Translations under genes and position numbers: made by a program
DNA from: Marsupella aquatica
Taxonomy: Eukaryota; Plantae; Marchantiophyta
Assembly (NCBI GenBank): GCA_973895155.1
Contig: OZ316895.1
Coordinates: forward strand, 22,022,558 to 22,086,557
Direction of reading: 5' to 3'
Length of the DNA stretch: 64,000 bases
Notes under the pieces: model-generated
What the model was told of the DNA's origin: nothing
What the model saw: only the letters and a program-made list of their open reading frames with translations
Database searches by the model: none
Shown: piece after piece, positions 5,338 through 31,526 of the stretch
Position numbering within the stretch: position 1 is the first letter of the stretch
Layout of the letters: every line of letters begins with the position of its first letter

Positions 5338-6476
5338 ATGAGAAAATCACAAAAAATGTTGTTTTTCACAACTTCTCAAAAAACTCGAAACTCAACACCG
5401 CCGCATAGCCCACAAAGCTAGGAGTCCAATACTGAAAACCAAAATCAAAATCGAAATTTGACGGAAAAGTTATTCAAATTTCCGTCGAGGTGGGTAAAAC
5501 CTTGGGAAACTCCCCCGTTTTGACCACCTCAGGGAATAACCGAAATACCAAGTACAACCCGTTGTCGGAATTGCGATGTGATTGGTGCGCCGCGTTGCCA
5601 ACTTCAATGGCTACGATCTCGCCAAAAAATAACCAAAAAAGTTACCGTTTGGCGGATGAAATCTTTGTCGGACGGTCAAAAAATAGCTCTCTGGTTTTTT
5701 GGAATATTCTATGACCCTTGTACAGGCCCTGTGAGAATTTTGGAAGAACAATCGAGGGGCTGACACGTGTCCTCGAACCCCCAAAACCCCCTACCACCCT
5801 TCGTCGTCGAAATCTGGTCGCGCGCGCAGAAAATACACACGGCAGAATGTACCCCTCGACACCAAACGCAAGATATCTCACTCGGGTTTTGACGAAATCA
5901 AGATCTGATTTCAGATTTGGAAACCAGACTCCGAGGCGATGAGGATCGATATAAGAAGCACCCAAAACGAGGAAAGAATGAGGGAGAAAAAAATTGGTAA
6001 AGATGACAGATTTCTCTCAATTGCCATAGCCAATTTCGAATCAGTTTTTCAAAGAAAAAAAATGGTACCTTGTCAACAACGAATGTTGATCAATTGCACT
6101 TGGTGCCGTCACCAAGTCCAACAAGGTAATTGATTTTTGCTTAGCCTTCCTCTTTGCATCAAAGAGCCAATCCCGGACTCAAAACAATCGTCTTGCCTCA
6201 ATCTCTCCGTTGAGTCAAAACACTTGACGCTTCTCCCTCCGAGTCGATTGCCAACTTTCTTCACAAAATCCAGAACGACAAAAACTTAGATCTCTCTACA
6301 CCACGAGCTCCGTTCAGCAATTTCTTCACACCGTTAGAAAGCTCTTGCCCTGATCTATCCGTTGAGCCAATAAACTCCAAGTTCCATGCGACGGAACTCT
6401 GGGAAATCCACCGACACTTAACGCTGGAAAAACCGTCATGAAATCCCGTCACGAACACACGTCACCTCCCAAGCAT

Positions 6477-6893: not shown

Positions 6894-9288
6894 TGCCTGC
6901 TGGCCTCCCTGAGGGAGTTGTTCTGATATGTCTATGGGGCTGTTTGCTTCCCCCCGGCCGTGGGGTTTTCGCGGTCTCACCTTTTTATTATAATTTTTTT
7001 TTCCCAGGAAGACCAAAGAAGACTTTGGTCATAGTATCCAAAATCTCATTCTATATGATTTTCAATTTCAACAACAATCCAACCACAATAATCTCCAACG
7101 ACAAATGTACTACCGGACTAGACTGTCCAGTCCATCACTGTATCTCCCGGACCAGTAACCAATTCTAAGACTGTTTGCACAAAACCAACAGGTGGTTGCA
7201 AATGCCTAGCAAATTGAAGATCTGGTGTCTGATGATTTCTTAAAGCAGGCAACCCAATGAGGCTTGTAATGGAAAGGTACTCTGTAGTTGAAAGCTGTCA
7301 AAATTTGGGGTCCTTGGGAACCCTTCCTTTTGAGAAAACCCCCAAAAAACATTAAACTTAAGAGTGAACATCTGCAGAAAGAATTAAGTTTACATCCACT
7401 AACTATCACCCAAAAGGAGCTCTCACTCAAGTACTCAAAACTCATAGTGTGTTTGGGGTCCGAATGGTCCCCAAACAGCTCAGCTCGTCCCATGACCTAA
7501 CCAGCTCTCAACATCAGTCTAAGTTCTGGTGTGTATCACCAGCTCAGCGCTTTGCTTGTGGAACGCTTCATTCCACAAGTCTCCCCCTACTTAGTCCCCA
7601 CCAGATGGCCATATATCCCAGGGGCCTAGACCATAGAGGAGCTTGCGTTGGAGTTAGCAACACCGGAACTAAGTGGTAGGGTTGTCGAGTTCCGCAACTG
7701 CACTACTTAAACTCAAAACAAATTACTAGTCAATAATGCTTCTTTTGGTTGAATAACAAATTACTTTATGAATCTCAAGAGGCTAGAGATCTGGATGATG
7801 GGCCACCAATATGACGTAGGCAGTTTCCTTTATGGATCTCAACAGCGAACGAGATGCCTTCTCCAAGAACCAAAAATGCACATCGAGAGAGAGCATCAAT
7901 CTATTATTCTGGAGGGTGCCCACTGTTTTTCCAATCCACGCTCACCCAACTACAGTACTGTACACGAAAGAAGGAACCGACCCAGCAAACGAACGTTCGT
8001 GGCAATCAAGTATCCGTTTGTTGGAAATGGCGATCATCTCCTATGACGTGCTCATGTCTTCTTAATTGCTTTTGTGGGAAGGCATTGTCTCTCCTCCACT
8101 CTCACCGGAAATAATGAGAACCAGCTTGCAAAGAAAAAGTGAGACCAATTCTCTTTTGATATGAGAGGGCCTCGTCAACGTTGGATGTCCCTCTGGAGCC
8201 TGTTTCTCCGCTCACACGGTTGAAGCAAAAGCTTCACAGGAAATGTAGCTTCGTGGATGTTGTTGGGGATCAGCTGAAGAGCTGGATTCTAGGGAGAGAG
8301 AGTGTGAGTTTGCTGAAATTGTGTTACTCCACGAGAAACCGAGTGTGACGCCATTTAGTGGGTTGGAAATTGCATGGAAAGGGAGGAGGGATGGTGATTC
8401 ATATTGAATAATCAGAAGCATTTGTCATCCGTGATTTACAACGAGGAACGCAATACGAGAAACAAATTTCGTGGATGACGTGAGAAGCGGACGAGGGATA
8501 AATGAGTACAGTAATTTACTTTGCAGGCCCGCATTGTTCACTGCTGTTCCGTCCAAGAACACGAAACCGAAAGAACTGTCTTGCAAAATTGAATGGTGGA
8601 CGAGAGGAGTTTGCGACACGATTTCCAGTATCGAGAGACTTGTAGAGCGATGGTGCGTGTGGAAGAAGACATGCGGAGTTGAAGGCGAGGAGCTAAAGGT
8701 CAGCTCCAAATGCAGGCAGATTGAATGAATGTAAGTAACTAGAGAGAGAGAGAGGGCGAGAAAAACGTGATGTAAGAAATTATCAGAACGCTGTGAACGA
8801 GCTGGACGGCGAACACGATTCTCATTATGGAGGAAGCAGGCAGCACTCGTGGCAGGGGCTGGAGATGACATCGTCATGTAGAGTAATGAGGACTCGTTTT
8901 CGCTAGTCCTATCATTTGTCCGAGCTTCATCGATCTGGGAATCCATTGGCCTAAATGTCTACCAAGAAATGGGTCGCTGAGGAAGAAAGCGAATCTTTCC
9001 CCTAGCCAGCAGCTATCACAATTGGGATTGCAAATGGGGACCTCAGGAAATAGCAGTCTTGGTTTCCCCTCCTAGTAAGCTGGTCGCTGTTAGAGTGCTA
9101 GAAAAAATTAAGATTCGCTCCTGCAGCACAAGGCAACTATCACAGTTGAGTTTGCAGATGACATTCTCGTTAAACAACAGCGGGAGCCTTCGTTTCCAAA
9201 GTGCCAGACAAGAGTACGTTGTGGATCGAAGATTTGGGAACTCATTTTCTATCGTTTTATCTCATTCAAGTCTTGAGGGAAAACGAGT

Positions 9289-10698
9289 ATGGAACACTTA
9301 CGAGGAGGAGGAGCACAACAGAAGATGGAGCTGGTGGAGAGGTTGAGGAGGGAGGATCACCTCCGTGTTAAGCACGACAAGCTTTTCTCAGATTGGAAGA
9401 TCTTGGTCGGTCCAGCCGATTGGGAGGGTCACACAGCTGGAAAGGAGGGCTCGCAAAGATACAGGCTCCACAATTTGCCAGCCTCTTACTTCGGGCCAGG
9501 CGTTTACGAATTGGGCTTGACTAAGCAACATACTAGCACTCCTCCTGAGGATTCCAAGCAACAGAAACTCAAAAGACATGCTGTGGTGGTCGTATACCTA
9601 GGCCAGGCTGACAATGTCCGTCACCGACTCCAAAGATATGGCCAGACGGGATCTCACTTGGAAGGTACTAGATCCGGTCTCGTTTTTGAGATAGAAGAGA
9701 ACATGGAGCAGCAGAAATCAGGGGTTATGACAGCCAAGCTGAGAGGACGGTTTGCACCAAGGCCTCGAGTTGAGAAAGCAAGAGGTAATACAGAGACCAG
9801 CAGCAGTATGCAAGAGGGGCTCAAGCTTTTCACCGAGGTCTTTTCTAGAGGGTATTCAATTGCTTTCAGATGGGCCAGGACAGAGAGCAAGCAGATGGCT
9901 GAAAAGGTAGAATCCGAGCTGCTTCATGTGTTTGACTATCCTTGGAACACCTCCCTGAATGGGGCTCGACGGCCTCGAGACATTCTCACCAAACTGGACA
10001 TGCTGCAGTACCAACTGGAGAGGAGTTTGTGCCTGGGACCAGTCTTGGGTTCCGGCTGGAGAAAGTGGGAGTATTTCGGCAGGAAGGTTGGTATTTCTGT
10101 GCCTTTGAGAAAGCCCACAACAACTGCTCCAACGCGGGCTAAAGTCTCCACAACCTTTTTCTTGTCTTCCACTAAAGGAGGAGCTGCAGAGGATGATGGT
10201 GGGGGTGCTAGCTTGGTTTGTGGTGTGCTTCTGCCTAATGGATCAACCTGTGGCACTCCTCCTGTGAAAGGACGCAGGCGTTGTGAAGACCACAAAGGTC
10301 AAAGAGCCAAGGTTTTCACCAGGAAAATTCGAACCAGAATACCCCCAATTCAGCAGCAGTCAGAAGAACACAACCATGCTGAAATGGGCAGCAGCACAGG
10401 CAGAAGCAGGGCCAGCAGCAAACCAGCAGTTGTGATCATTAAAGCACAAATGCAGGGTAAGAGAGTGGAGATCACCGATGTCTCCACTGATGGGTTGGTA
10501 GGAGTTTGTGGAGCAAGTGTGGACGGTGGGGCCCCATGTTTGAGCCGACCTGTGCAAGGGAGGAAGCGCTGCGCAGCCCACAAAGGATTACGCACATCAT
10601 CCAAGAGCAATCCAAAAGCGGCCTCATTTGCAGACAAAGATGCCGTGTGGTCAAGCCTTTCAAGGAGAAATGGTGGCCGGTTCGTTGATCAAGTCTGA
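9289..10698 (+). CDS. EFFECTOR OF TRANSCRIPTION (ET/HRT)-family protein: GIY-YIG-like domain plus two Cys/His ET repeats; single exon
   Basis: 469-aa ORF with HDKLFSDWKILVGPADW, RYRLHNLP, PGVYELG and VVYLGQADNVRHRLQRYG. Two ET repeats: CGVLLPNGSTCGTPPVKGRRRCEDHKG and CGASVDGGAPCLSRPVQGRKRCAAHKG. Confidence 0.9.
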   Translation: MEHLRGGGAQQKMELVERLRREDHLRVKHDKLFSDWKILVGPADWEGHTAGKEGSQRYRLHNLPASYFGPGVYELGLTKQHTSTPPEDSKQQKLKRHAVVVVYLGQADNVRHRLQRYGQTGSHLEGTRSGLVFEIEENMEQQKSGVMTAKLRGRFAPRPRVEKARGNTETSSSMQEGLKLFTEVFSRGYSIAFRWARTESKQMAEKVESELLHVFDYPWNTSLNGARRPRDILTKLDMLQYQLERSLCLGPVLGSGWRKWEYFGRKVGISVPLRKPTTTAPTRAKVSTTFFLSSTKGGAAEDDGGGASLVCGVLLPNGSTCGTPPVKGRRRCEDHKGQRAKVFTRKIRTRIPPIQQQSEEHNHAEMGSSTGRSRASSKPAVVIIKAQMQGKRVEITDVSTDGLVGVCGASVDGGAPCLSRPVQGRKRCAAHKGLRTSSKSNPKAASFADKDAVWSSLSRRNGGRFVDQV

Positions 10699-12039
10699 GG
10701 AGAAAGTGGAAGGTGAACTACTCTCGTGGTTAATCCATCAAGTCAACGCTTTACCGTAATTTGAGAGTCCTCACCGATCCGGCTAACTGCTGGCTATACT
10801 TCCTAAAACTGATTTTGGCTGAATTCCACATCTCTTGCTCTAGATGTATGTCTTGTATTTGCCACAAGCAGATGGTATAGTATGGCCTTTTTTGGGAGGA
10901 CAGTATGTGTCATATGTTGTAATCATCAGATGTCGTAGGGATTATAATGCCATGGCTAGATGTAAGAAAACAGCAGAGGGTACGAATTCAGGGGTGGGAA
11001 ATCATTTTTGAAGTTAATCTTCACATTTGGCTCTAGCAACCGTTGTTTGGTTACTGTGAAGGTTCTGTAAGTTCGTGAATCCCTAGGAGACAGTGTGAGA
11101 AGTAGTAGCAGCCGCAGTTACTGTAGTTCCATCCCCTGAGACGACCAACCAAGTCACTTTGTGAATTTGGCAAGAATTGCTGGTCTCATCTGGGTAGTGG
11201 TTGTCGGTCCGTCCAGCAATCATGTGGTCTGGTTTTGGCAAAATTTTCTGCACGACCACAAATGTTTTATTACAGTCTGAAGTTTATAGGCATTCTTCTT
11301 CTGAACGCCTTCATCTGCTATTCTTTAGTTCCAGAGGGATGTCAATGGGGATGCTGATCTATGCCGATTGTGGGCTTTATGTCAATTTTGGAACTATTAT
11401 CCAAAACAACAACTGGCAGTCACAGTTGAAGAAGTGCATCAATTGATTCAACCTGTAAAGAAGAAGAGATCAAATTTACCCAAAGTGTCCTAACAAATAC
11501 GACGAGAGAGAAATGGAAAACGTCCTGTCGAACCAAGGAAAAAAACAGGATCAAAGAGAAGAACTAGTGATACTGTGATGATGCAGTCAAACATCGTCAA
11601 CACGATCAGAAAGAACTTACTCCAAGGATAGTTCACCAGCCCCTCACCCTCGGCCACTCCATCAAAGTGACAAAAAACCAACACAGCTGCCACACGAAAG
11701 GATTGGAAGAGCTGAAATGGAGGTAAGTAGAGCACGGGATTGGTTCTCAAGATCCATAACTCCATGTTACCAACTTGTGCTTGCTTTCTTGTTAACTGCG
11801 ATTGAAACAATGGGTAAAAGGCCGTATTCCATTACGCTGGCCCCCAAGGCCCTGACCCTTTTCAAGATTGGTGCAGAGAGTCGGGACCCTTCGCATGTTT
11901 CGGGTGATCAACACACAATACTAACAAGTCGAGGAACTCTCGGCGAGCCTTCCGCAGACTGCAGAATGTCCGGGTTTGCAGAGAAGAAGGCTCAAGTACT
12001 GATATGATCTGCTGTGTGTGGAGAATTGGTCCTCGTCCA

Positions 12040-12437
12040 ACTGTCACTCACTTCAAGGTAGCTCCTTTCTAGTAGTATCGGAATTCTCATTGACATAAAG
12101 AAGATGGGCAAGAAATTATTTAGCCAATTCGATGGATTCTTTTATCTAAGAGCACCAGTTTATTATCGTCCTACTGTCACTCACTTCAAGGTAGCTCCTT
12201 TCTAGTAGTATCGGAATTCTCATTGACATAAAGAAGATGGGCAAGAAATTATTTAGCCAATTCGATGGATTCTTTTATCTAAGAGCACCAGTTTATTATC
12301 GTCCTACTGTCACTCACTTCAAGGTAGCTCCTTTCTAGTAGTATCGGAATTCTCATTGACATAAAGAAGATGGGCAAGAAATTATTTAGCCAATTCGATG
12401 GATTCTTTTATCTAAGAGCACAGTTTATTATCGTCCT
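12040..12437. repeat. Tandem repeat, 3 x 133 bp, near-identical
   Basis: ctgtcactcacttcaaggtagc... recurs at 12041, 12174 and 12307. Confidence 0.95.
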
Positions 12438-13395
12438 AAACTGGGATGACGAGTGCTGCATATCAAACGACTCAGTGAGCCAGTCAGATCTGATAGAAGT
12501 GGATCTCGTATATATTTGGTGCCTACACAGCGGAACCCCAGCATCATGAAGTCACAGTCCTGATTGTGTGCATGAAATCTCCATCCAGATCCACCACCAT
12601 ATGCGCTCCGGGTGAAAGACCATCCTCGAACTTGAATTTGGGATACATTGAGTTGAAGTTTAAACTGTACTCGAGCACAGAATTCGGAATGTTTCAGCTC
12701 ATCTCTCATGTGCAACAGACTAAAATATTTATTCCTGATACGATTTGTCAATTGCTCTCTACTACACAAACCTCGGGTCCTCATGAACATAGTGGTCAAA
12801 TGAAATCATCGTAGCCATCGCCCGGGAAAGAGTGAGAGTCGTCTAGGTGAGAACAGATTCTCTCTTATTCTTCGTTGGATGTGAGCACAACCTCAATACT
12901 TCACTACCTCAGATCCAAAGAGACCCATGACCGGTGCACTTCAAAAACACAAGAAAACTTACTACCGGCATGCCCACAAGCCTCGGCAACCCATGTTTCT
13001 TCGGATATAAGAGCGACTTCACCTCAAATCCAGAGACAACCATTGTGCCAAATGAAAAACGCAAGCGCTCCAACGCGGTGGTGCTTGACCACTAAAGACA
13101 ACGAGCCTCAACCCCGGACAAGGTCACTACTACACAAACCTCGGGTCTTCATGAATATAGTGGTCAAATGATATCATCGTAGCCATCGCCCGGGAAAAGA
13201 GTGAGAGTCGTCTTATTCTTCGTTGGATGTGAGCACAACCTCAATACTTCACTACCTCACACCAATGACAGGTTCAGATCAAAAAAACACAAGAAAACAT
13301 ATTACCGGCATGCCCACAAAGCCTCGGCAACCCATGTTTCTTCGGATATAAGAGCGACTTCACCTCAAATCCAGAGACAACCATTGTGCAAAATG

Positions 13396-13728
13396 AAAAA
13401 CGCAAGCGCTCCAACGCGGTGGTGCTTAGCCACGGGGCCTCTAAAGACAACAAGCCCCAACCCCTTGCGAGAGATCCCGGACAAGGTCCGGGCACGAAGC
13501 GCATCCTGTCGGTACACCATTTTTGAGCCACTCTGGGCCGGTGCCGAACTAATGGATACTCATGGTCCACTGACAATCCCGCAAGGAATACGAGTTACGC
13601 TAATTGCTCCGACTTCGGCATCACCAGGGCCAACGATTGATCAGAAGGTTGGAGGTCTGGTGAAGAGCTTTCATCTGGGTCCAGTCACCAGGGTCCGCCG
13701 CTAAAGCAGTAGCAATTCAGGGCGCTCT
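13396..13728 (-). ncRNA. Putative Pol III structured RNA, copy A (shorter, diverged)
   Basis: USE-like TAAACCATAA (13794-13785), 25-bp spacer, TATAAA (from 13759), predicted start AGAGCGCCC 31 nt later. 3' end GCGCTT followed by T5. Homologous to copy B. Confidence 0.5.
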
Positions 13729-14640
13729 GAGAATGCACTCTCGGACCCTGGGATTTATAGTCGGGTTGTCTGAGTTGCCCATGCTTATGGTTTAACAGAA
13801 CAGTCCAAGCGATCGAATTGCTCTCTACCTTGCTCTCTCATATACCTTGGAATTAAAGGGTTACTACTCTCTAACCCTGGGACCAGAAAGTGAGGAAATG
13901 CTGACCAGTGGTAGCAGGGAAGTTTTTGCAAGCTTTGTGAGAACAGGTTTCAGACTAGAACCCCAGCCCAAAAAGTCATTATATGTACCTGCCTGAGAAA
14001 GACTATTACAGGGTAAGACTTTCTGGGCACAGGGTTATGGAAATGGGTACCGGTCTGTAACCTCTCCCGGTAACCTTTCTTCCTGACAGAAATTACGTTG
14101 CATTTTAACTCACATGCCTTGGAAGTTGTGTTTTAGCTCATATATTATGCTCTCTCATACACCTTGGACATGTTGTGTTCCTGATCTGAATTGTCAATTG
14201 TTCACAAGGGACTACTGCACAATTGTCTAGTCTTCATGAACATAGGGGTCAGATGATAGCATTGTAGCCGTAGCCTGTGAAAGAGTGAGAGTGGTCGTTG
14301 CTGAGCTCACGTATTCATTCTCATTTTTTGTTGGATGTGAGCCCAACCTCACCTCAAATCCATTTGCCTTCAAACACACAAGAACCGTCATTACCCTAAA
14401 ATCCAAGCAGACCAATGATTTGTTCCTCCAAATCCAAAGAGATCCATGATGCAAACTGAAAAACTGAAGAACAAGCACACCAACATGGTGATGCTTTAGC
14501 CCACAGAAACACACTAGATGCATCTAGCTGCCCATCATTTGGAATGGTTTTGTCTAATGCAGATATGTCCTCTAGGTCAAGTGAGTTACCACTGCTAGAA
14601 ACGAAGCTCCTGCTTTGAAGAAAGGTATATAGAGTCAGGA

Positions 14641-14682
14641 CATTATAGTGGGATTGTTTGAGCTACCCATGCTTATGGTTTA
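14641..14682 (-). promoter_or_regulatory. USE-like plus TATA-like module of a decayed copy of the ncRNA unit
   Basis: TAAACCATAA (14682-14673), 25-bp spacer, TATAAT (from 14647). A degenerate 3' end and flank lie at about 14190-14500. Confidence 0.5.
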
Positions 14683-16127
14683 ACAGACCAACCAATGAGT
14701 GATCCCCTCCTCTTGCAAAAAGAATCTAACTAATAAAGTGTGATGGAAAGTTGCTTTCTAGGCTTTAGTCTAAAGTTGAAGCATCTAGACCCAGTAACTC
14801 TAAGTGATGGCATAACTGAAAATGAGGATAGAGACAAAAACAACAAAGATGGGGGCAAAGGTGAACAAAACATAAGGTGGAATCATGTTTTTGAGGAAGG
14901 TTTTTTGTCTCCTCTCCTCATCTCTATTTCCATTCAAGGAATGGGTAATCAGGCCAGTCTTACAGGTTACAGAAAACTGTTAGTTTGGAGTTTTGTCTAG
15001 TCTACATTATATCCACTTAAAGGTAAGAACTCTCTAGAATGCAGTTAATGCTAAAATATTCAGCCCCCAATTTCCAGGATAAATCCTTGTGCACACTAGT
15101 CCTGTCTTCATTCTGCAAGCACTTTTTGCAAACGTAGGAACTGCAAGGGCCTGACTGTTTGCATACTTGGACTCTGTTTTCCCATAAAGAAACTGTGCCT
15201 GGCAAATGAGGTGTTTCAGGCACAATTTTTTCCTTAAGCAATATGTTGCCAAAACACTGGTTTACTGACTCAAATTGAAGGGTCACATGCATGCAAGACA
15301 GCTGTAGGAGCATTTCAGGGAGCTTTGTTTAAGAACCTGCAGGTATAGATGTGCCATCCCTATTGAAAGTTGGGACATGACTAGCAAATATTTTATAATG
15401 CTTGCAAAACCTCAACAGAATTTTGTATCTCTTGTTTAAAACACTGACTTCACCCTTTCCACCTTCTTAAAAAGACAAAGAAACAGAAACGACCCCAATT
15501 CCAGCCCCACCAAAAAATTATTTTTCCCCTGATAAATTTCTTCCCAGCCCCTCAAAAATTGGGCCTTTGCGGGCTGCCTCCCTCCCTCCAAAACAATCAA
15601 TCATATCCCCAAGATTCCCCCAAAAGTTTATCGTTTGTTTCCTGTAAGTGCCAAGTGCCAAGTTTATTTGCCAAATCAAAAATTAAATTCAAAGAGATCC
15701 ATTGTGCTAATTGCAGGCTCAAAAATGCAAGCAATCGAGCCCAAATGTCCTCCTTAGCCATGGGACCAGTACCATCTTAGCAAAAATGGGAAATTTGGAG
15801 TCATATGACAATGCCAATATTCTAACACAAGCACTTTAAAACACAAGGCACTCCAAGTACAAAAAATGAAAATACAGTCAAACTCAAATACAACACCCCA
15901 TCATGTGCACTATTTAAATGGGGTGTTCTATTCAAATACAAGGCCATGGCCTTCTGTCCGGGGAAGAGGGGAGTATCAAAGCCTCTCCCCAATCCCTTGC
16001 AAAAACAATAGCATCCTGTGGGTACACCATTTTTAAGCCTCGTTTTGGGCCGATGCCCAACTCCTAAAGTGAAATGCCAAATCAGAAATTAAAATCTCAA
16101 ATACATCCACGCTGCAAATTGCATAGC

Positions 16128-16505
16128 AAAAAACACAAGCGCTCCAGCACGATGGTACTTAGCCACGGGACCACTAGGGACAAAGAGCCTCTCCCCAACC
16201 CCTTGCGGATCCAAGGCTCGTCCTGTCGGTACACCCTCTTTAAGCCCCGCTCCCGGCCGATGCCGAACTCCTGGACGTGCGCTCCGCCCACTGGCTTCCC
16301 GCAAGAGATCCGGGCCGCTCGATGCCCCCGACATCCAGCACCGCATCGCCAGCTAGCAATCCTTGCCGCAGCTTCCAAGACAAGACCACGAGTGCGGAAG
16401 AGTCCTCCCAACCGTGCACTGGCGCTAGACTGGCCACAGCCCCCAAGACTGGATCCCATGGCCAGGGTCCTCCGCTAGAGCTAACAAACTCTTTCAGGGC
16501 GCTTT
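16128..16505 (-). ncRNA. Putative ~378-nt Pol III rod-like structured RNA of unknown family, copy B (best folded)
   Basis: USE-like TAAACCATAA (16572-16563), 25-bp spacer, TACAAG (from 16537), predicted start AAAGCGC 32 nt later. 5' AAGCGC pairs with 3' GCGCTT, nested internal helices, T6 end at 16133-16128. Confidence 0.65.
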
Positions 16506-16624
16506 GCAACGTCAAGCGTCGGATTCAGCATCTTGTAGTCGGCGTTCCTAAGCTACCCATGCTTATGGTTTAATAACTGCGTGAAGAGAGAGGAAAGAGC
16601 TCGGGCAACTGTTGCTCCCTTTTC

Positions 16625-16952
16625 TGGATCCAACGGCCAGGGTCTGTCGCTGAAGCATCTGTAAGGCAGAGTTTTTCAGGGCGCTTGATTAGGGGAATTT
16701 CAGAAAAAAAGGACTTCATAGTTGGATCGCCTAAGTTACCCCATGCTTGTCGTTTAATAACAGAATAGCGACTAAGTGAACGAGTGCCTTCTGGCGAAGA
16801 GCCTGAGCTGCATCTTCTTCTCTGGATCCAACAATGGCCAGGGTGTGTAGCTGAACCAATTGTAAGACAGAGCTCGGGACGATTGACTGGGAGGAGTTCA
16901 GGAAATGTCCTTAATAGTTGGGCTGCCTAAGCTACTCAATGCTTCTGGTTTG
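16625..16952 (-). pseudogene. Two 5'-only fragments (promoter plus first ~60 nt) of the ncRNA unit
   Basis: Plus-strand ggatcc..ggccagggt..gctgaa and degenerate 'catgct..gttt' USE motifs repeat at about 16625-16756 and 16822-16952. Confidence 0.55.
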
Positions 16953-17503
16953 ATAGAACTATGAATGACTGATGAGCTCCTGTGGCGACAGGAAGCTACA
17001 CTAAACTGTTGCACAGCTGGTGGCCCCCCCAATTATTAGCGCTTCTTTCTGATTGTGGAATTGGCAGTTTCTCTGTTAAGAAGTTCTTTGTCTCATTGGT
17101 TCACTGAATTCTCTGCATGATTTCCAGTCTTCACTGAGACTCCCATATTGGAATTGGCAGTTTTGATGAGAGCTCCGTTCTTCCAAGTGGTCCGAATTGT
17201 GCAGCGACTTTTTCAAATCCAAGTCCTGCAAAGCTGTGAAGTTGCATTTTAACTTACACAATCCAACAGGCTCATATGTTCATTCCTGATCCGATTTGTC
17301 AATTGTTCACAAGGTACTACTGCTACACAATCCTCTAGTCTTCATGAACACAGTGGTCAAACGATAACGTCGAAGCCATCGCCCGGGGCAGAGTGAGAAC
17401 GGATTCTCTCTCATTTTTCTTCGAATGTGAGCGCAAGCCCATTTTTCTTCGGATGTAAAAGCGACCTCACCTCAAATCCAAAGAGACCGATGATGCGAAT
17501 TAT

Positions 17504-17816
17504 AAAATACAAGCGCTCCAACGTGGTGGTGCTTAGCGACGGGACCACTAGAGGCAACTCGCTCCCAACCCCTTGTGAACCCCGGGTAACATCCGAGTTT
17601 GATGAGCACCCTCATCTTTAAGCCCCAATTTCTGGGAGACAGGTGCTCTCGGATGCTCATCGTCCACTAGTCAACTATTCACAAGAGATCGAAGATACAA
17701 CAAAGCTCTGATCCAGAACCGCAGCAGACTACTGCAGAGCTTTCAACTGGATCCTGTGACCAGGGTCCGCCACTAGAGCCGCAATCTACCCTAAACGGAT
17801 CTCTTCAGGGCGCTTT
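17504..17816 (-). ncRNA. Putative Pol III structured RNA, copy C (shorter, diverged)
   Basis: TAAACCATAA (17882-17873), 25-bp spacer, TATAAG (from 17847), predicted start AAAGCGCCC 31 nt later. 3' end GCGCTT followed by T4. Confidence 0.5.
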
Positions 17817-18079
17817 GAACAAATTCTGCCAGAGTCACTAACTTATAGCGGGATTATCTGAGCTACCCATGCTTATGGTTTAACAGACCAAGAAGTGAGT
17901 GAAATGGCCCTGACAAACAAATCGGCCCTTAAAACTCCCTCAATTTCGGGGATAAATCAAGCACTTTATGGACCATCTAGTATTATCCATGCTGACGAAG
18001 CCCCATGCATAGAAATAGTATTCTCCATGCCTAGACATTCAGATCAAGTACCCCGTGATAATCTATGGCCTTTGTTCTC

Positions 18080-18236
18080 TTTTGTTCTCACCGACATCTT
18101 GGCCGACATCTTTTGTTCTCACCGATATCTTGGCCGACACGACATCTTTCTTCTCAACGACCTCTTGGCCGACATGACATCTTTTGTTCTCAACGACATC
18201 GGGAACAACATCTTGGCCGTCACGACATCTTTTGTG
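18080..18236. repeat. Minisatellite, about 5 imperfect units of ~30-33 bp
   Basis: Recurrent ttttgttctca(c/a)cgacatcttggccgaca. Confidence 0.85.
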
Positions 18237-18827
18237 CAACGCACGGGTATTGAGCTAGTCCGATAAAAAAAGAACCTTCAAAATTAGGACCTTCTACTGC
18301 AGTGCCATCCCTCTTGAACTTTGGACGTGACTGACAAATATTCTATTATGCTGTAAAATTTAAGAATTTAAAATTTAAGAACTAAATCAGGAGAAGAAAT
18401 TGTGGCTTTGCATTGTTTCCTGGAATAAACAAAATGAACCTATTTGCACAGGCAATAGGGTAGTGTTATTGTCTGAAGTACCCATTCTTGTGGTTTGGTT
18501 TAACTAAACAATAAATGAGTGGTCAGGTCATTTGGTGGAAAGAGTGCTATGTAGGTTATAGGCTGTGTTTAGTGTGTTTCCTAAATTTGTTGTGCAAACT
18601 TTTGCCATCTTGTTACCTGGATGAGGTCCTGGCAAAACTACAAAGAGATATCAGGCGTTGGTGACACAAGACTGAGCGTAGTTATTTATTTATTTGTGTA
18701 AAAATGGAAAAATGGCACTCAAAACTATAATTACTCCAAATCCCTTTTTGCTTGTCTGTGTATTTCTTTCATTTAAGTTTCTCCTTCACCCTCCCCACCT
18801 TCTTAAAATTAGTTCATGGACCCCCTA

Positions 18828-19150
18828 TTAACGGAAAGCTTCAGACGACATCAACTCCTGAAAGTCCACCTTCCCATTATCGTCCGCATCGACTCCCTTG
18901 ATCATCTGCTGACACTTCTTATAACTATGTCCTTCTTTCATGCCCAGGCTCTTCAACACCATCTGCACGTAGACGAGGTCTTTATTGAACCCTGCTAAGC
19001 TTGCTTCTCTTTCGTTCACTCGTGCCTCATGCATTGGACAATCTAACAGTAGCGAGAGGCATCACTGAGTTAGGAACTGCAATGATGACGCCATGGAAAG
19101 GAGTGTTGAGTGATCAACATAGAATCATGTCCACTTCTTCCTTCGTGGCA
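18828..19150 (-). pseudogene. Calmodulin-like (EF-hand) pseudogene fragment
   Basis: VLKSLGMKEG...CQQMIKGVDADDNGKVDFQE is a CML C-terminal EF-hand. The upstream part (ATKEEVDMILC*) is broken by stops or frameshifts. Confidence 0.7.
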
Positions 19151-20729
19151 GCAGAAGGTCAAGAAAATTGTCACAATTACTTTGTCATCAGATCATCTTG
19201 CCGAGAGAGATTTAGTTATTATTCAATTGAAACACAATTCAGAATGCGGGTGGGCAGCGGTTACTCAGGGTAAAAAAAATGGAAGATGGGCCTCCTACTA
19301 GTTGAACAATCTGTTACCTAGGATAAATAAAACGGTTATTTTTCAAACATTTCTACATCAAGGTTTACGGCATGGCATCCTCAAATTTACCAAAATCATG
19401 CCACACACACGAATGTTGAAGCAATTTTATTTTGTAAACCAATCCGTATCTGTTTGCCGCGCGTCTCGATGACATGGCGCATTGTGGAGTCTCAAATTTT
19501 GGAAGGGACCTCTAGTGGGGTCCGTAAAGAAATGAAACAGAAACAACCCCTTTTCTTTCCCAACCCCAAAAATAGGTGGCCTTTGTGCCTCTGACTCCCT
19601 CCCCCCACAACAATCAATCTTACCCCAAAAAATTCCCCCCAGAATTCCCCCAAAAATTTCTCACTTGCCTCCCGTATCTGCCAAGCCAATTGCCAAATCA
19701 TAAATGAAATTCAAAGAGATCCATGGTGCCAACTTCGGAATCAAAATCATAAGTGTGGTTGTGCTTATCCACGGGAACACTAGGGTCGAAGAGCCTCCCC
19801 AATCCTTGGCGAAACTATCACATTCTGTCGGTACACCATTTTTTAAGCCTTTTTTTGGGCCGATGCCAAACTCCTAAAGTGAATTGCCAAATCAGAAATG
19901 AATCCAAAACACAGACGCTCCAGCAAGGTGCTTAGCGACAGGAGCCCTAGGGACAGGGAGCCTCCAAAAGTAGATCCCATGGCCACACGGTGGTGCTTAG
20001 CCACAGTATGACTAGGGACAGGGAGCCCCAAAAAGAAGATCCATTGGCGAGGGTAACGGACTGGTGGTGATTCAAAGTTCCAGGTCGGAAGACTGCTGAG
20101 ATTTTCACCATGGATACAAAATGGCAGGCACTGCACAAGCCATGAAGTCGGCTTCTTTGCGAGTTGGTGTGCAATTCGAAATTGGTGCATTCAATCTCTT
20201 GACTTTTCTAATTCATTTAAGTTCTCCAAATGCCATTGTACTGATGGGGAGTGCCTGGTGATAGAGAAACATAAGTACCTTTCCCTCATATGTTTGTTGA
20301 CAGATTTCAGCTTTAGACACTGCTATCTCTCTCAACAAACAAAACACATCATTCCTCTTACATCTGGGATGTTTAACATCTCTAACAGCTCCAATACAAT
20401 AGATGTTATCACAAACAAGGATCCGTAAAATGTGTGACCAGTGGAGGCTGCTGATAACCTCAAGCATTTAAGAATGAGTACTCTAGTGAGACTTCTTCAA
20501 ACTGTATCCTTGTCTCCATTCGAAGTTAGTATGGATATTGCTTTGAATACAAGGTCAAAATTTTTTATTAATGTCCTGAATCTCTGGAGAAGTCAAAAAC
20601 TCTGTGACAGATTTGAAAGTCCGTTCACATACTTATATGTCCAGGTATGTTCAATTGTGCAAAACCCGGTCATAAAGGTAAGTTCTCAGTCTTTATCTTA
20701 AATCATCAGTGACCAAGATTTACCCAACC

Positions 20730-23157
20730 CTATACCACACTTGCATCATGAACCTGGGAGCCCAAGGCTTCCATGACACTCTCCACCCACCTGAAAATCA
20801 AGCACGTGAACGTATGAGGGAAGTCATGGGAATTCGACACTTCTTATAGTTGACCAAAACACGTCTCCAGGTAGACAAATATCAGAGGACTGGAAAGATA
20901 CCCTTCGATGCCTGGACTCTCTGGATGGAAAACGTTATTCAGTCCTGCTTTCCTTGCTGCCTGTGCAGAAGTGATTCCGATACAAGCTGCTGCCCCATTC
21001 CATTGAGGCAAATGCTCCTTCCATGCCCTGCATCCACGCGCAGGAAGTTGACAGTCTAAATAAAGACATGACAAAAGCTCGCCTGGGCTGTATCCACACT
21101 CCTGATATAGTGTAGAAAAATCCGTGATTCAACAAACTCGACTAAAGAGTGACCTATGCTTCTGGACTGCATGTCAGGCGAAGACCTGTAGAATTTCGAA
21201 TCTACGTGTGTGAAAAGCGAGGCTAACAAAAGTAGCTTGAATAATTTAAACAAATTCGACAATATCAGCTTCCTTCCTCTCTCTTCGAAAGAAACTTCTG
21301 AAGCTACTGCAAAACCATAAATCTTGTTTGTTGATTTGAGATTTGCAGATTATGTGGTTATCTTGCAAATCTTGTTTGTTGATTGAGCAAATTTAGATTG
21401 AGGGGTCTCATTCGTTTAAGAGACAAGGAACCTACTTGACAGCCGTAGGAGAACCAAAGGTAGCAACAGGAGCAACCATTGCAGCAGCAACTTTCTCTTG
21501 ATCAAGCACTTTCACACTCTCCTATCAATTTCACCCACAATGAAAAGCACAATGAGCTTTGAGAAGAGTCTAGCCATACATAGGACTGTTCTGGTACGGC
21601 ATGGGAACATAGCTGAACTGGTGAGCTACAAGAAAGGCAAGACGTGCTGCACGAAGGCTGGTGAAGACTACTTACTGTTGAATAAGTATTTAGGCGTGTA
21701 ACCTCAAATCCTCGTTCCATCAAACCGGTTTCTGCAAAGAACCCAATGTCAAACACGAGAGGCGTTCCATACTGAATCCACACATATTCACCTTATGAAG
21801 CATCACACCAAAATTTTCAAACCTCTTTTGTAGAAGAACCGAATGGTGACCCGTGCTTGCAAGGAAATAAACATGACGCATACCAAGGTCACTCCCGGCT
21901 TTTGCTGATGAAGGATAAAGAACTCGGCGATTTCCATTCACAGTCGTAGGTAGCTCTACAGCCAGGACCTTTGCAGTAGCTGGCACACACAAGGACCATG
22001 GCTGGGATGTCAAAATGTTTTCAGTTTCCTGCTTAACGAACCTGCTCTAAAGGCTAATTCCAGTAGATTCACCCCTTCCGGACAGCTAAAGACTCGTTTT
22101 CAGCGTGCTCACCATCTTCTCGGCCAGGAACTAACATCATGAATTGTGAACAAACCTTTGGAGGGCGAGAATTCAAGTTGAAGTGCCTCCCTTCCATCCT
22201 TGACCTTGTCAAACTCCTGACCTGTTCCTACCCCAACAACAGCAACACGTACTTTGGGGTAGCCCGCATCTCTACGATCAATCATAAACGAAACAACTAG
22301 AGTCAGTTTAACTGGATGCGATATAAAATTCACACAAAGAAAATTCACTCAGAGCTCTTAAGACTAGGCAAGGCCAATAGGAGATAACAAGAGCTGACAG
22401 TGTGGAAGCTGCACACGCACCTCCACCCCTTGATGAAAACTGTGGCAGCTTCGGGAGATGTCACGACTATCCACTCAAATTCGACGTCTGTGAGCATGAT
22501 CGACCTAATCCTAATTAAACCCTTGACCATAGGAAAAGCCATAAATCAAAATTGGGCTGCTTTTCATCCACCAATGGGTCCACAGAAGAAGACAAAAGCT
22601 CATGGAAACTGCACTACAGCGCGGATATCTGAAAATATGAAAACCCATACCGCTTAAAGCATGAGAAAGCTTGTCCAAATCCGGTCCTGCCCTATGCTCG
22701 ATCAGCGGAAGCTCTAGACATTGAACCCCTCTTTCACCCTGAGGCGATTTTACAATAGAAAAGAGACACATTGCGTAATAAGAAATCTCAGTCCATGCCC
22801 TTCTCCTTCTTATTATCAAATTGTCTAATCAACCTAATTTAGAGCATGAACTAAGTCATTTGTAATTCTGCTGCCCAGAAAGGGGCCAAGAGAGCTCTAC
22901 CTCAACACCAAACAGAGTTACACACAAGACCATCGACTCAGCTCAAATCTCGAATTCGAGCTTACCAGAGCTTTCATGAGCTTCCCGTTCTTCCCACTTT
23001 CCCGTGTCACGACCACGTTAGCGCTGCCCACACTACTGCCTCGACACCGGACTCCTAACGTCGCCCATGACTGGGCTCCTACTCTAAAGTCCATCCCCAC
23101 CCGACTCCATCTCGCAGCACCATACGCGCAGGAGGAGATGGCCTCAAGCATTGCCAT
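20730..23157 (-). CDS. HEMD: Uroporphyrinogen-III synthase, chloroplastic (9 exons, ~295 aa)
   Basis: GT-AG exons 22966-23157, 22651-22738, 22421-22487, 22156-22271, 21884-21979, 21676-21731, 21436-21521, 20902-21027 and 20730-20790 sum to 888 nt. Motifs VVVTRESGKNGKL, LELPLIEH, WIVVTSPEAA, VLYPSSAKA, VTRLNTYST, PESPGIEGWV. Confidence 0.93.
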
Positions 23158-23379
23158 TTTCGCGGACACAAGGACAAATGCCCCGCACCTTCCTGCAATT
23201 TCTGCTTCGGATGAATTTGAGTTGGATTTGGTCAGGAGCCCAGATCCACTCTTCCAAAGCGCAAGAACATTTTCCCACTACGAGTTGGCGCACCTGCGCA
23301 ACCGCAACGCAAAGTCCATCAAGCTCAGTGAAGTGGAAAAACTAATGCTCACAATGCACCACCTCAGCTCCTTAGCAAC

Positions 23380-27719: not shown

Positions 27720-30700
27720 CTACTTTGCGCTGTCAACTTCGGCAGCTAAATCAGAAAGGGCCAGTCGCGTTGCGGTAGCAGGACTCATCAGCCATGGAAT
27801 TAACAAACTACCTGTTGTCATCCACCTTCCAGAGTCTAACGAAGGCTTAAAGGGAGCCCTGAGTTTTAGGATCTCTTTCTGCACCGAAGTTTGAACTATG
27901 GATGAGCCCTCTTGCTTACTCAGCTTTCCCCAGCCTGTAACAATAGTAATCAGCGGTGGAAATTGCTGCAAGTCCTTGGAAGCAAACGGATCTGACAGTG
28001 AAGGTAGAAGACGAAGTAACAATTCCACTTCTACTGGCATGCTAGTCTTCAAGTCTCCAGATGGTTGATTAGATTCTTCGCCGACTGTGTCCTCCTTATT
28101 TGCCACCGGTGGAGGATTCAATTCAGATCCCGAGGTGATCATTTTTAAGTTCTCTAAGTGGCGAGCAATAATTACTAGGTGCCCAAACCATTGGTATAAG
28201 GCCACAAGTGCAGTCCCACTTGACAGCCGTCTCAAATCAAGTTTCCATTCCCGTGCATGAATAACACATACATCTTCAAAAATGCCCATTTGCATGACCC
28301 ACGCCACGACATGCGCTGCTCGACGGTACCAGCCCAATGCCCATAAAGCATCCACCAATGAGCTGGTAAATACAGTACAGGTTTTCAGGTCTTCCTTGTC
28401 CAAGAATGAAAAGAGTCTGCTAATGTTGTTTCGTACCTGATGACAGAAAGTACACTTCCGGTTAGAAAGAGGACACAACCTTGATTGACTGAACAGAAAA
28501 CCAAAAATACATGCTCACCAATACACAGAAATCGATGTTTTACTTTGCATGGCTTGTTTCTCTCACCTCCTCATCATTGCTCATTTGTTTCAAAAGCAAC
28601 CGACAGGTATACACCGCTAATTCTGAATCAAGTCCTTGAAGGAAATTAACAAGTACACCTGCATCTTCAGCACTGCTGCACTTAGAACCGAGAGCAGCTA
28701 GTACGATACTACATGTAAAAACGTTTGGAGCACAGTTGATAGCCACCATGTCGGATTGCACATCTTTTACTTTGTGCAACTTGCCCCATTTGATATAAGT
28801 ATCAATAGCCTCGGAAAAAACATGCTGATTGCACATCGACTCCCTTTTTGCCCGGTCATAAAAGGATATCACCTGTCCACCACACAAAACGTCCATCAGC
28901 CCAATCTCGCAATTCGTTTTCCGCGTGGACTGTAGCAGTGACGCCCCTGAAAATCCCATTGTCCAATTGTGATGAGGTAATGGAAGCCACATCTATTCTA
29001 TCTTAATGCTACTCATAACCATAAACCATTGAGTGCTGTAAACCTCACCTCCTGGTAAGCTCCAGAAGCCTTCAGACAGGACATAAGACTAGAAAATGTA
29101 ACGTCGGTGGGCTTAAGACCGGCAAGTTCTAATTCTTTAAATTTCTGCAGCGCCATTTCAGACTTTCCTCCCTTGCCGTACATATCTATCATAGCATTAT
29201 ATGTGACGACATTAGGCTCGAGTCCAAACTCTCTCATTGCCTGAAAAAGCCTTTCTGCTTCGTCAAGATTTCCATCCCGTCCGCAGGCAGTAACTAGAGA
29301 GCTGAAAGTTCGTGTATTAGGACGACAGTTCTCGGCCACCATATCACTTAAAACTTCCAGTGCCTGAGTGCAATGACCTGCAATGATCCGAACGTCAATA
29401 GCCGTACCGAAATTACAATCACAAGAAACCATCAAGAATTCTTACCTCCTCTTCTACCTGCACTCTCAGAACCGGGAATGACCCTAAACTCTCAGAAACG
29501 TTCTGCAGTCTAGCGATCTCAAATTTCAGCGTCAACCTTGAAAACCCTGGCAGTCTCTGCGCGGACTCGGTACTCTCATAAACGCCTCAAATGAAGACCT
29601 AAATTCATGAAGACCTAAACTCATGAAGATAGTGTTTCCGTGCATTAAACATTATACCACAATCCCCCAGCATGCCAGGTCGGATCTCTGGAGACATTCA
29701 GACTAAGACGCTCCATGGAAATTTTGAAAATGTACCTCTGGCCCAAAATCTAAAACCCTTTCAAATTAGGGTTCTTCTCGCAAGACCACCAAACCCTAAA
29801 ATGTTTCAAAAACTGATCTTCTGCAATAGTATGTCGTTATGAACATGCGTGTATCAGCCGTAGAAGCAGTCCGCTCAGATGTCTATAAATTGGAGGCACG
29901 AGAGAAAGGTCCTCCGAAGAATGAAGTGGCTTCACGAATACATCTGAATCTTACCTGAGTTAGCATATAAAGTAATCAACGTTGTGTGAGTAACCACGGA
30001 GGGTTTGAAACCCTTCTTCTTCAAGATATCCAATATTCTCTGAGCTTCTTTCACGTGTCTTCCAGGAATACAAGCTTGAAGTAGAGTATTAAAAGAAACA
30101 AGATCCGGTTGAATGCCTTGAGAATACATGTCTCTGAAAACATCGACCACTGTACCGAGCCCCATTCCGGCTTGGACATAAGAATTCATGACAGTGTTGT
30201 AAGTGATTAGATCCGGCTTGTAGGCGCTGTGCTTCATGGATTCGAAGAGATCCTCCAGAGAATCTATCTGCCCTGCTTTACCCCGTGTGTTCAACATGGC
30301 ATTCAGCAACGCCGGATCCTTCTCCACCTGTGTATTCTCTAGACCCTCAAAAACCTTTTCTGCTAATTCAAAACTGCCGGCCTCACCGAGAGCAGATATG
30401 ATGGTGGTATAGATGTGAGGATCTAATTGGCACCACCCTTGCCTCTCCATCCACCGCAACACTTCAAGGGCAGCCTGAAGATGCCCCTTCCGACCTAAAT
30501 CTTGCATTACGGAGTGGATAATTCTGGCAATCTGTGAGTATGGGACGAACTTAATTGTTGAATAGTTACTATCGGGGCGGTCTCCTTGCCCGCTTAAATT
30601 ATCGAGAGTCCACATAATGTCCACTCTTGAAACGAATTTTCTGAGCCATTCGGTCAACACGTTTCCGACCAATGTGGCATCCTGCAAATTCATGATGGTT

Positions 30701-31299
30701 TGCACAATACTTCCGACAATCTGTGATCTCAGCTCAAGTTTCGCCTTTGTCAAACCATGGAACGCACGAGGAGAGGTCGGAGGCTGTCCCCTCCCATCAC
30801 AACTCTCAAGATTCACACGATCCAATAACTGCATTGAGAAAGCACGGTCTCCTCCATCATCTCCAGGAAGATCTAAACGACTGCTGCTTCTCGATTCCTT
30901 CACCCACGTTGCTTCTTTGCCTGCTGTACCTTGCCCGTCTAGTCCATCCGCAAATGCTTCCACTGATGTGGGTCTTGAGGTCATAGGACTCCCGAAAAAT
31001 ACATCGCCATTGTGAGCCACTCCGGAGCTAGTCCTGGGGAGAGTTTGCCGATGCGATTGTCCATCTCGGCCAGGCGCCCCCGGCCTTGCCGGAAGTCCCC
31101 CTCTCCCACGATTCTCCTGGATGAATCGGGGTGCAACACCGGAGTGGGAGGAGGAGAGCCTCTGGAAACAGCAAGGAAGTGAGAAAAGCTTGGAAGGATA
31201 GAGGAGGAGAGGGTGAATGGTGGACGAGGGGTAGACGACCAAATGTCGAATGGTGAACAACCGCAGCGTTGTCCAGAGGACCAACTGTCCCCCTCCCAT
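27720..31299 (-). CDS. P-class pentatricopeptide repeat protein with C-terminal SMR domain (GUN1/pTAC2-like group); 5' end uncertain
   Basis: Exons about 29950-31160(+), 29049-29378, 28567-28871 and 27720-28435. PPR motifs PDLITYNTVMNSY, PDLVSFNTLL, PNVVTYNAMIDMYGKGG. SMR motifs LDLRRLSSGTA and IVTGWGKLSK...APF...GR. Confidence 0.88.
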
Positions 31300-31526
31300 C
31301 GCGCTGCGCAGGCTCCGCCTCCTCCTCTTGCCTTACAATTCGCATCGTCTTCATCCCCCCGATGACCTTCTCCTCTATTCTACTCTCTCCTCCTCCGCCT
31401 CTCCGTGCCCCAATGCTCCTCTTGCATCCCTCGAAATACCACCACCACAAGCAGTCCATCACAACATCGCGAATCCATCTACAAAACCCCTCACACGTCC
31501 TCAAACTTCCACCGCCACCGCCACCA

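What the first reader, a model, noticed from the sequence alone, without database searches (positions are those of the whole stretch)
12690..20050. Birth-and-death cluster of the putative Pol III RNA gene with conserved promoter geometry
Seen: the USE-like motif (plus strand catgcttatggtttaa) occurs intact at about 13780, 14668, 16558 and 17868, and degenerate at about 16742, 16938 and 18483. In the four intact cases the USE-to-TATA spacer is exactly 25 bp. In the three full copies the start AA/AGAGCGCCCTGAA lies 31-32 nt after the TATA, although the sequence between TATA and start is unrelated among copies. 3'-end fragments lie at about 13050-13120, 15720-15780, 15970-16066 and 19750-20030. 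Downstream flanks are co-duplicated (about 12740, 13126, 14190, 17290; 15480-15720 versus 19530-19745), and all copies share one orientation. Inference: DNA-level tandem duplication rather than SINE retroposition, with selection on spacing and terminal stems.
Basis: partly seen in the sequence, partly recalled or inferred. Interest (0 to 1): 0.75.

Follow-up and report, generated by a model that had tools for sequence, protein, structure and literature searches.

The report
Remodelled 7SL RNA genes in liverwort
A leafy liverwort carries a tandem cluster of three full and many broken copies of a 310-375-letter non-coding gene, likely made by RNA polymerase III and likely descended from the signal-recognition-particle (7SL) RNA; it is predicted to keep the SRP54-binding loops while lacking a hairpin tip that textbook SRP RNAs have.

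Summary
The cluster is real. The host is a leafy liverwort (neighbouring ET protein 75% identical to Calypogeia). Three full copies (A, B, C), one internally deleted copy, two 5' fragments and six 3'/internal fragments lie on the minus strand between ET and HEMD. The 18-nt upstream element is identical in four copies, while TATA-to-start sequence is at shuffle level with length fixed at 25-26 nt. Contig depth is single-copy, so this is not a dispersed SINE. New here: the apical domain of copy B matches printed human 7SL in three colinear blocks (11/11, 12/12, 15/19; simulated chance 33/800,000 and 44/400,000). The gaps are the two strands of lower helix 6. A helix-8-like element keeps both stems and the invariant A.C and G.G pairs, but 3 nt replace the apical stem-tetraloop. 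No Rfam family hits, there is no telomere template, and expression is untested. The 7SL match was made by eye against the human RNA; no liverwort SRP gene was available. Best reading: a birth-and-death family of 7SL-derived RNAs forming a variant SRP-like particle. Bold reading: these are the working, non-canonical SRP RNAs.

The parts
13396..13728 (-). Copy A, full-length RNA gene, 328 nt to a T5 tract
13754..13795 (-). Copy A promoter: USE-like element 13795-13778, TATA 13759-13754
13056..13115 (-). Recent duplicate of A's 3' arm with downstream flank
   Evidence: (D2, 97%)
14459..14616 (-). Copy M, internally deleted copy with 5' start and 3' arm, 152 nt to T5; probably a decayed derivative (fold z -0.4)
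14642..14683 (-). Copy M promoter, intact USE-like element and TATA
15722..15771 (-). Degenerate 3'-arm fragment
   Evidence: E 0.45 and 0.005
15979..16065 (-). Fragment F1, apical domain; A.C pair of the helix-8-like loop lost
16128..16505 (-). Copy B, full-length RNA gene, 372 nt to T6; best preserved copy
16207..16269 (-). SRP S-domain-like segment of B: block 16269-16259, helix-6-like GGAG hairpin 16256-16245, block 16244-16227, helix-8-like element 16236-16207
16346..16436 (-). Part of B's variable insert; 11 substitutions and 2 gap letters between sequence types
   Evidence: tables 3 and 8
16532..16573 (-). Copy B promoter, intact USE-like element, non-canonical TATA
16613..16757 (-). 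Copy D: degenerate USE, TATA-like site and 5' fragment; no T4 before B's terminator
16821..16953 (-). Copy E: degenerate USE and 5' fragment
17504..17816 (-). Copy C, full-length RNA gene, 309 nt to T4; 10-nt gap in the helix-8-like region in the window's form
17842..17883 (-). Copy C promoter, intact USE-like element and TATA
18465..18529 (-). Orphan degenerate promoter, no TATA, no RNA behind it
19755..19875 (-). Fragment F2, apical domain and 3' arm, decayed
19906..20031 (-). Two tandem 3'-arm fragments
9277..10698 (+). Flanking gene, EFFECTOR OF TRANSCRIPTION (GIY-YIG); places the host among leafy liverworts
20847..23277 (-). Flanking gene, HEMD-like exons (only the last tested exon hits Pfam HEM4, E 0.009, below cut-off)

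Best explanation
[quoted passage not shown] Shown: the copies, their shared orientation, co-duplicated promoters and flanks, uneven conservation, low copy number, three colinear sequence blocks shared with printed human 7SL. Inferred: USE/SNAPc-driven Pol III transcription from a C|A start to a T-tract; a long rod with a terminal stem; remodelling of an ancestral 7SL copy (lower helix 6 removed, helix-8 apex reduced to 3 nt, Alu motif changed by one letter) before tandem DNA duplication; purifying selection strongest on copy B; decay of the other pieces. Untested: expression, protein binding, and whether canonical SRP genes exist elsewhere in the genome. Confidence in the cluster and DNA-level origin is about 0.9, in 7SL ancestry about 0.8; the figure below is for the whole statement.
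For: Promoter geometry: with the CCA core aligned to the Arabidopsis USE the gap to TATA is 23 nt, the Pol III range (23-24) and not Pol II (32-34) given in PMC8287931; the motif resembles printed USEs of a fern and of algae/protists. First T4+ tract falls 1-2 nt after the terminal stem in 3 of 3 full copies; 17.5% of random starts run 300 nt without one. Terminal stem (mean pair probability 0.53-0.77) and central helix (0.88-0.99) form in all three single-sequence ensembles; 14 of 80 consensus pairs change on both sides, 1 of 500 shuffles reaches that, but the structure was fitted to these three sequences. Two window motifs of B co-occur in 4 listed papers that print 7SL; in the two prints read in full they sit in order at about nt 119-129 and 144-155, the second being the helix-6 GGAG apex, and the next 18 nt of B match nt 169-187 at 15 of 19 columns (by eye). 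Nulls: 33 of 800,000 for two such 11-mers under each of two models; 44 of 400,000 for the third block. [quoted passage not shown] These are the SRP54-binding features named in PMC4605306. In X2 the second sequence type is identical to B over 16133-16345 and from 16437 through the promoter but differs at 11 of 91 sites between.
Against: No Rfam SRP model (nor any convincing family) hits at E up to 10 in five small-window scans or up to 1 in the whole window. A profile of 28 archaeal SRP RNAs gives no hit on A, B or C, and the reverse search gives none (one search had mixed orientations). The exact blocks are B-specific; A has a 3-nt loop at the helix-6 tip. The comparison is to the human RNA, by eye and after the fact; I also saw 9-13 nt matches out of order, which shows the background. 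Blocks 1 and 3 are complementary to each other, so the two nulls are not fully independent. Local energy prefers other folds: the SRP-like fold is 8 kcal/mol (A) and 4 kcal/mol (B) above the minimum. Whole-RNA folding z-scores are only -1.0, -1.2, -2.0. UGUNR occurs in the first 50 nt of B only. A 177-nt flank block is also free of differences in X4, so zero-difference blocks are not unique to the RNA, and my flank rate used only contigs that differ. One preprint saw no USE in the Marchantia U6 promoter; no known snRNA gene of this genome was available to confirm the motif.
Confidence: 0.5

Rival explanations
1. These genes are the liverwort's working cytosolic SRP RNA genes, in a non-canonical form that standard models miss.
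For: Size, long rod, type-3-like promoter and retained helix-8 loops fit. Basidiomycete SRP RNAs were missed by computational searches because of helix-8 changes (PMC4605306); plastid SRP RNAs tolerate apical loops of 1-11 nt (PMC4091067).
Against: The apical stem-tetraloop is absent, helix 6 is cut to about 7 pairs, B lacks the strand that A offers for helix 5e/5f, and UGUNR is kept in 1 of 3 copies. Copies differ far more than expected for an essential RNA (interior 49-57%). PMC8287931 applied the plant SRP model to bryophyte genomes; its table of results could not be read.
Confidence: 0.15
2. A remodelled 7SL copy that was amplified and is now decaying without function; apparent conservation comes from recent duplication and gene conversion.
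For: Most pieces are broken; A and C differ between sequence types in paired regions; A and C share 75-78% identical downstream flank but unrelated TATA-to-start sequence, which suggests mosaic exchange.
Against: USE identical over 18 nt in four copies whose adjacent sequence is at shuffle level; fixed TATA-to-start length; paired changes in the central helix; A.C kept in full copies and lost in fragments.
Confidence: 0.15
3. An unrelated, so far unknown structured Pol III RNA; the 7SL likeness is chance.
For: No Rfam or archaeal-profile hit; the match rests mostly on one GC-rich copy; two 11-mers alone would not survive a correction for all 4227 families on two strands.
Against: The third block, the position of the gaps on both strands of helix 6 and the helix-8 loop pattern add to it, and SRP is one of the few plant RNAs with this promoter type.
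Confidence: 0.15
4. Telomerase RNA paralogues that lost or changed the template.
For: Similar size and promoter type; terminal stem; plant TR paralogues are common.
Against: Best match to any CCCUAAA permutation plus one letter has 2 mismatches and sits inside the terminal stem in 3 of 3 copies; no U-rich pseudoknot loop seen; plant TR models could not be run.
Confidence: 0.03
5. A SINE or other dispersed mobile element.
For: 7SL has seeded SINEs in mammals (recalled).
Against: Single-copy depth and only in-window relatives at 80% likeness; upstream promoter and downstream flank duplicated with the RNA; no tRNA part.
Confidence: 0.02

Closest known systems
Eukaryotic SRP RNA (7SL; Rfam RF00017, RF01855)
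   Same: About 300-375 nt, long rod, type-3-like promoter as in plant SRP genes, three colinear S-domain blocks, GNAR-type helix-6 tip in B and C, helix-8-like asymmetric and symmetric loops with A.C and G.G in A and B.
   Different: Helix-8 apical stem and GNRA loop replaced by 3 nt; helix 6 short; invariant 5' motif differs by one letter from the Alu motif of archaeal controls; extra variable domain; no Rfam hit.
Non-canonical basidiomycete SRP RNAs (PMC4605306)
   Same: Helix-8 changes that hide the RNA from standard models while the A-C pair is kept.
   Different: Those have insertions or small loop changes and keep both apical loops; they are shown to be in SRP particles.
7SL-derived Pol III RNAs of mammals (Alu monomers, BC200; recalled)
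   Same: Likely descent from 7SL and Pol III transcription.
   Different: Those keep the Alu domain, drop the S domain and spread by retroposition; this family keeps S-domain remnants and spread by tandem DNA duplication with an external promoter.
Plant telomerase RNA (PMC8287931, PMC6765143)
   Same: USE + TATA + T-tract gene layout, 5'/3' terminal stem, similar size.
   Different: No template, no pseudoknot found.

Membership tests
Eukaryotic SRP RNA | Score with an Rfam SRP covariance model | tested here: not met
   No SRP hit at E up to 10; none at E up to 1
Eukaryotic SRP RNA | Helix 8 apical stem with GNRA-type tetraloop | tested here: not met
   0 of 3 copies; 3-nt cap where 23 of 28 archaeal controls have a 10-nt stem-loop
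Eukaryotic SRP RNA | Helix 8 symmetric loop with invariant A-C pair and adjacent G | tested here: inconclusive
   Pattern present in A and B, absent in two fragments and broken in window C; local minimum-energy fold differs
Eukaryotic SRP RNA | Helix 8 asymmetric loop with 5' strand 2-3 nt longer | tested here: inconclusive
   Register gives 3 vs 0 nt in B, 8 of 8 pairs; 6 of 8 in A; predicted only
Eukaryotic SRP RNA | Helix 6 tetraloop with A at third position | tested here: inconclusive
   Met in B and C, not in A; helix much shorter than in printed 7SL
Eukaryotic SRP RNA | Alu-domain UGUNR motif | tested here: not met
   In first 50 nt of B only; the invariant 5' motif is one letter off the motif in 10 of 28 archaeal controls
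Eukaryotic SRP RNA | Binding to SRP54, SRP19, SRP68/72, SRP9/14 | not testable with these tools
   Needs biochemistry
7SL-derived RNA (descent only) | Colinear sequence homology to an SRP RNA | tested here: met
   Three ordered blocks against printed human 7SL, by eye, nulls; no similarity to archaeal SRP; liverwort SRP not available
Plant type-3 Pol III gene | USE-TATA gap in the Pol III range, start about 30 nt after TATA, T-tract end | tested here: met
   23 nt by core alignment, start at 31-32, T4-T6 end
Plant type-3 Pol III gene | Same USE as the genome's U6/U3/MRP genes; Pol III transcript | not testable with these tools
   No whole genome; no RNA run listed
Plant telomerase RNA | Template of telomere repeat plus at least 1 nt | tested here: not met
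   Best 2 mismatches in 8 for CCCUAAA in 3 of 3 copies
Plant telomerase RNA | Score with bryophyte TR covariance model | not testable with these tools
   Supplement unreadable
SINE | Dispersed high copy number, internal promoter, no co-copied flanks | tested here: not met

The most novel reading that the evidence does not exclude
Probability: 0.15. Interest if true: 0.85.

Novelty: new variant of a known kind. Interest (0 to 1): 0.62.

Why it matters
No plant RNA family built from S-domain remnants of 7SL turned up in ten literature searches, which cover only the held library. If the RNA is expressed and binds SRP proteins, it is either a natural minimal S domain that tests whether the helix-8 tetraloop and SRP19 clamp are needed in eukaryotes, or a plant parallel to 7SL-derived regulatory RNAs that arose by tandem duplication instead of retroposition. 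The cluster also supplies a candidate leafy-liverwort USE that could seed searches for other Pol III genes, telomerase RNA included, and a native promoter for guide RNAs.

Tried and rejected
No whole genome is held, so copy number rests on contig layouts. No RNA holder listed; this says nothing on expression. Rfam: six scans, only weak unrelated hits. 3'-arm pattern in metagenome contigs: 2 matches, both in bacterial-looking sequence, read as chance; the apical-hairpin model scores only its 4 training sites among 7 sources. 5'-arm and S-domain-like patterns in viral contigs: 0. USE 18-mer in prokaryote genomes: 4 matches, within chance, not read further. No tRNA. 5 ORFs over the copies have no Pfam hit. 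Archaeal SRP comparison negative (28 of 30 fetched loci used, two with short flanks dropped). My first hand-drawn pairing of the 5' and 3' arms is favoured only in C; the RNAalifold register is favoured only in B; neither in A, so that helix is unresolved; the P6a row for B used a wrong anchor and is disregarded. Mini copy M does not form the terminal stem in its ensemble. RNase MRP/P, U3, 7SK, Y RNA and hammerhead motifs were looked for by eye from recall and not seen. Human contamination is unlikely: a 3227-nt contig spans B to C without a difference at single-copy depth. Four papers were not held. Earlier-finding look-ups by place, sequence and first words were empty.
Full report
Host and setting. 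The ET protein next to the cluster is 75% identical to a Calypogeia fissa protein, 55% to Marchantia and under 50% to moss and seed-plant hits among 120 listed, so the window is from a leafy liverwort. The cluster lies between ET (9277-10698, +) and HEMD-like exons (about 20847-23277, -). No whole genome is held.

Inventory. A profile of the three full copies finds 11 pieces, and a promoter-inclusive profile 14, all on the minus strand between 13040 and 20031 of 64 kb. Full copies: A 13728-13396, B 16505-16128, C 17816-17504. M (14616-14459) has promoter, start and 3' arm but no interior. D and E are 5' fragments behind degenerate promoters. The rest are 3' or internal fragments and one orphan promoter.

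Promoter and ends. The upstream element is identical over 18 nt in A, M, B, C. With its CCA core aligned to the Arabidopsis USE the gap to the TATA is 23 nt, inside the Pol III range of 23-24 and outside the Pol II range of 32-34 stated in PMC8287931 (passages, one section and parts 3-5 of 8 read; supplement unreadable, and it holds the bryophyte USE table and TR models). The motif resembles the fern USE in bioRxiv 10.1101/2025.01.12.632625 and algal/protist USEs (passages). Against: bioRxiv 10.64898/2026.10.23.761446 saw no USE before Marchantia U6 (passages), and B's TATA is non-canonical. The presumed start is an A after C, 31-32 nt from the TATA in 4 of 4 intact promoters, although the sequence in between is at shuffle level in 6 of 6 pairs. 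The first T4+ tract closely follows the terminal stem in 3 of 3 full copies.

Selection and mode of spread. Identity among A, B, C: USE 100%, USE-TATA spacer 61-67%, TATA-to-start 40-54%, first 13 nt 92-100%, 5' arm 79-85%, interior 49-57%, 3' arm 85-90%, next 60 nt 54-75%. In run X1, 7 contig records lie on 16060-17930 at 80% likeness; the 6 shown are the window's own copies; depth over 16060-17256 is flat at 14 while nearby repeats reach hundreds to thousands. X1 may be the source of the window. Runs X2 and X4 hold a second sequence type (allele, homoeologue or mixed sample; unknown). In X2 it equals B over 16133-16345 and from 16437 through the promoter, but differs at 11 of 91 sites in the variable insert between; C differs at 10 sites plus 20 gap letters over 17524-17692 in X4. 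This suggests B is the constrained copy, but a 177-nt flank block is also invariant in X4, the difference tables are cut, and the flank rate is biased upward.

Structure. Terminal stem and a long central helix form in all three single-sequence ensembles (0.53-0.77 and 0.88-0.99). The consensus fold has 14 of 80 pairs with two-sided change (1 of 500 shuffles), fitted on three sequences. Whole-RNA z-scores are weak. The helix between the 5' and 3' arms has two possible registers and is unresolved.

Identity. Rfam gives nothing. There is no telomere template. I then recalled that B's apical domain looked like the 7SL S domain and tested it with window-derived motifs: both occur together in 4 of 17 listed papers that print 7SL. 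In the prints read (PMC3395682, PMC9906624, PMC6336407; passages), B 16269-16259 equals nt 119-129, B 16256-16245 equals nt 144-155 with the helix-6 GGAG loop, and B 16244-16227 matches nt 169-187 at 15 of 19 columns, followed by the CAGG of helix 8. The two skipped stretches are, from recall of the human fold, the paired strands of lower helix 6. Random 300-mers give two such ordered 11-mers with any of A, B, C in 33 of 800,000 trials under each of two models, and the third block in 44 of 400,000. The first figure alone would not survive correction for all Rfam families; the combination does, even allowing for the complementarity of blocks 1 and 3. Copy A also offers a downstream strand that can close an S-domain-like junction, 8 kcal/mol above its minimum fold.

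Helix 8. Anchored on CAGG, B gives a 4-pair lower stem, a 3-nt 5' bulge, a 4-pair upper stem and a 4x4 loop C.C, A.C, G.G, G.A, capped by 3 nt where 23 of 28 archaeal SRP controls have a 10-nt stem-tetraloop. A keeps 6 of 8 pairs and A.C, G.G, with three one-sided changes that keep pairing; fragments F1 and F2 keep 5 and 1 of 8 and lose A.C; 30 of 5000 shuffles of B reach 8 of 8 anywhere. Window C has a gap here; a 2-letter insertion listed for the second type in X4 would restore the CAGG motif (my reading of a cut table). PMC4605306 names the A-C pair, the adjacent G and the longer 5' loop strand as the SRP54 site and the two apical loops as a conserved tertiary contact (passages). The isolated 30-mers prefer another hairpin, so this fold is predicted, not shown. 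Profiles of archaeal SRP RNAs find no similarity. I recall that flowering-plant 7SL RNAs do not share these exact blocks with human 7SL; a liverwort SRP gene closer to the ancestral type, or uptake from a fungus, would explain that, and neither was tested.

Mechanism. Likely course: one 7SL gene copy lost lower helix 6 and the helix-8 apex and gained a variable domain; the derived form spread by tandem DNA duplication with its external promoter; most copies broke; B, and less surely A and C, stay under selection. The RNA would still present the SRP54 surface but not the SRP19 clamp, so it would form a variant particle that sequesters or tunes SRP proteins (0.5). Rivals: working non-canonical SRP RNA (0.15; precedents in PMC4605306 and PMC4091067, passages), functionless decay (0.15), unrelated new RNA (0.15), TR paralogue (0.03), SINE (0.02).

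Membership and novelty. It fails membership of canonical SRP RNA (no model score, no helix-8 tetraloop, UGUNR in 1 of 3) but meets a descent test against one printed eukaryotic 7SL. Ten searches of the held library found no description of such a family (listings and abstract starts). Further papers seen as passages: PMC6765143, PMC9845283, PMC12972900, PMC8450087, bioRxiv 10.1101/2023.10.25.562971. One earlier scan note describes the mirror case, an arthropod 7SL copy without S domain (unchecked). Verdict: real, new variant of a known kind, interest 0.62; expression and binding remain open.

Noticed in passing
window 12033-12438: Three near-identical tandem copies of a 133-bp unit (99% matches) just outside the cluster.
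   Followed up: no
window 13872-14037: 20-nt inverted arms 126 nt apart with high contig depth; MITE-like insertion just upstream of copy A's promoter.
   Followed up: partly
window 18078-18260: 31-35 bp tandem repeat with the highest summed contig depth in the region (14,000 against 14 in X1); probably a genome-wide repeat.
   Followed up: no
window 14840-15123 and 18816-19527: Further high-depth stretches, likely transposon remnants inside the cluster.
   Followed up: no
window 16060-17930 in runs X2, X4: Two sequence types, one identical to the window and one several per cent diverged, at equal depth in X2; polyploid, hybrid or mixed sample.
   Followed up: partly
window 13437, 13440: The window's copy A departs from the family consensus here, while the form laid in X2 carries the consensus letters.
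   Followed up: partly
window 16687-16128: Fragment D has no T4 tract before B's terminator, so a transcript from D would read through B's promoter and B (554 nt).
   Followed up: no
window 16346-16436: B's variable insert differs at about 12% of sites between sequence types, more than the flank contigs seen; could be relaxed or diversifying, or a guide-like segment.
   Followed up: no
window 1024-5346 and 60468-61331: ORF pieces that read like copia-type retrotransposon proteins (by eye, not scanned).
   Followed up: no
window 27720-31332 and 51590-56594: Exon ORFs that read like a PPR-SMR protein and a plastid translation initiation factor 2 (by eye, not scanned).
   Followed up: no
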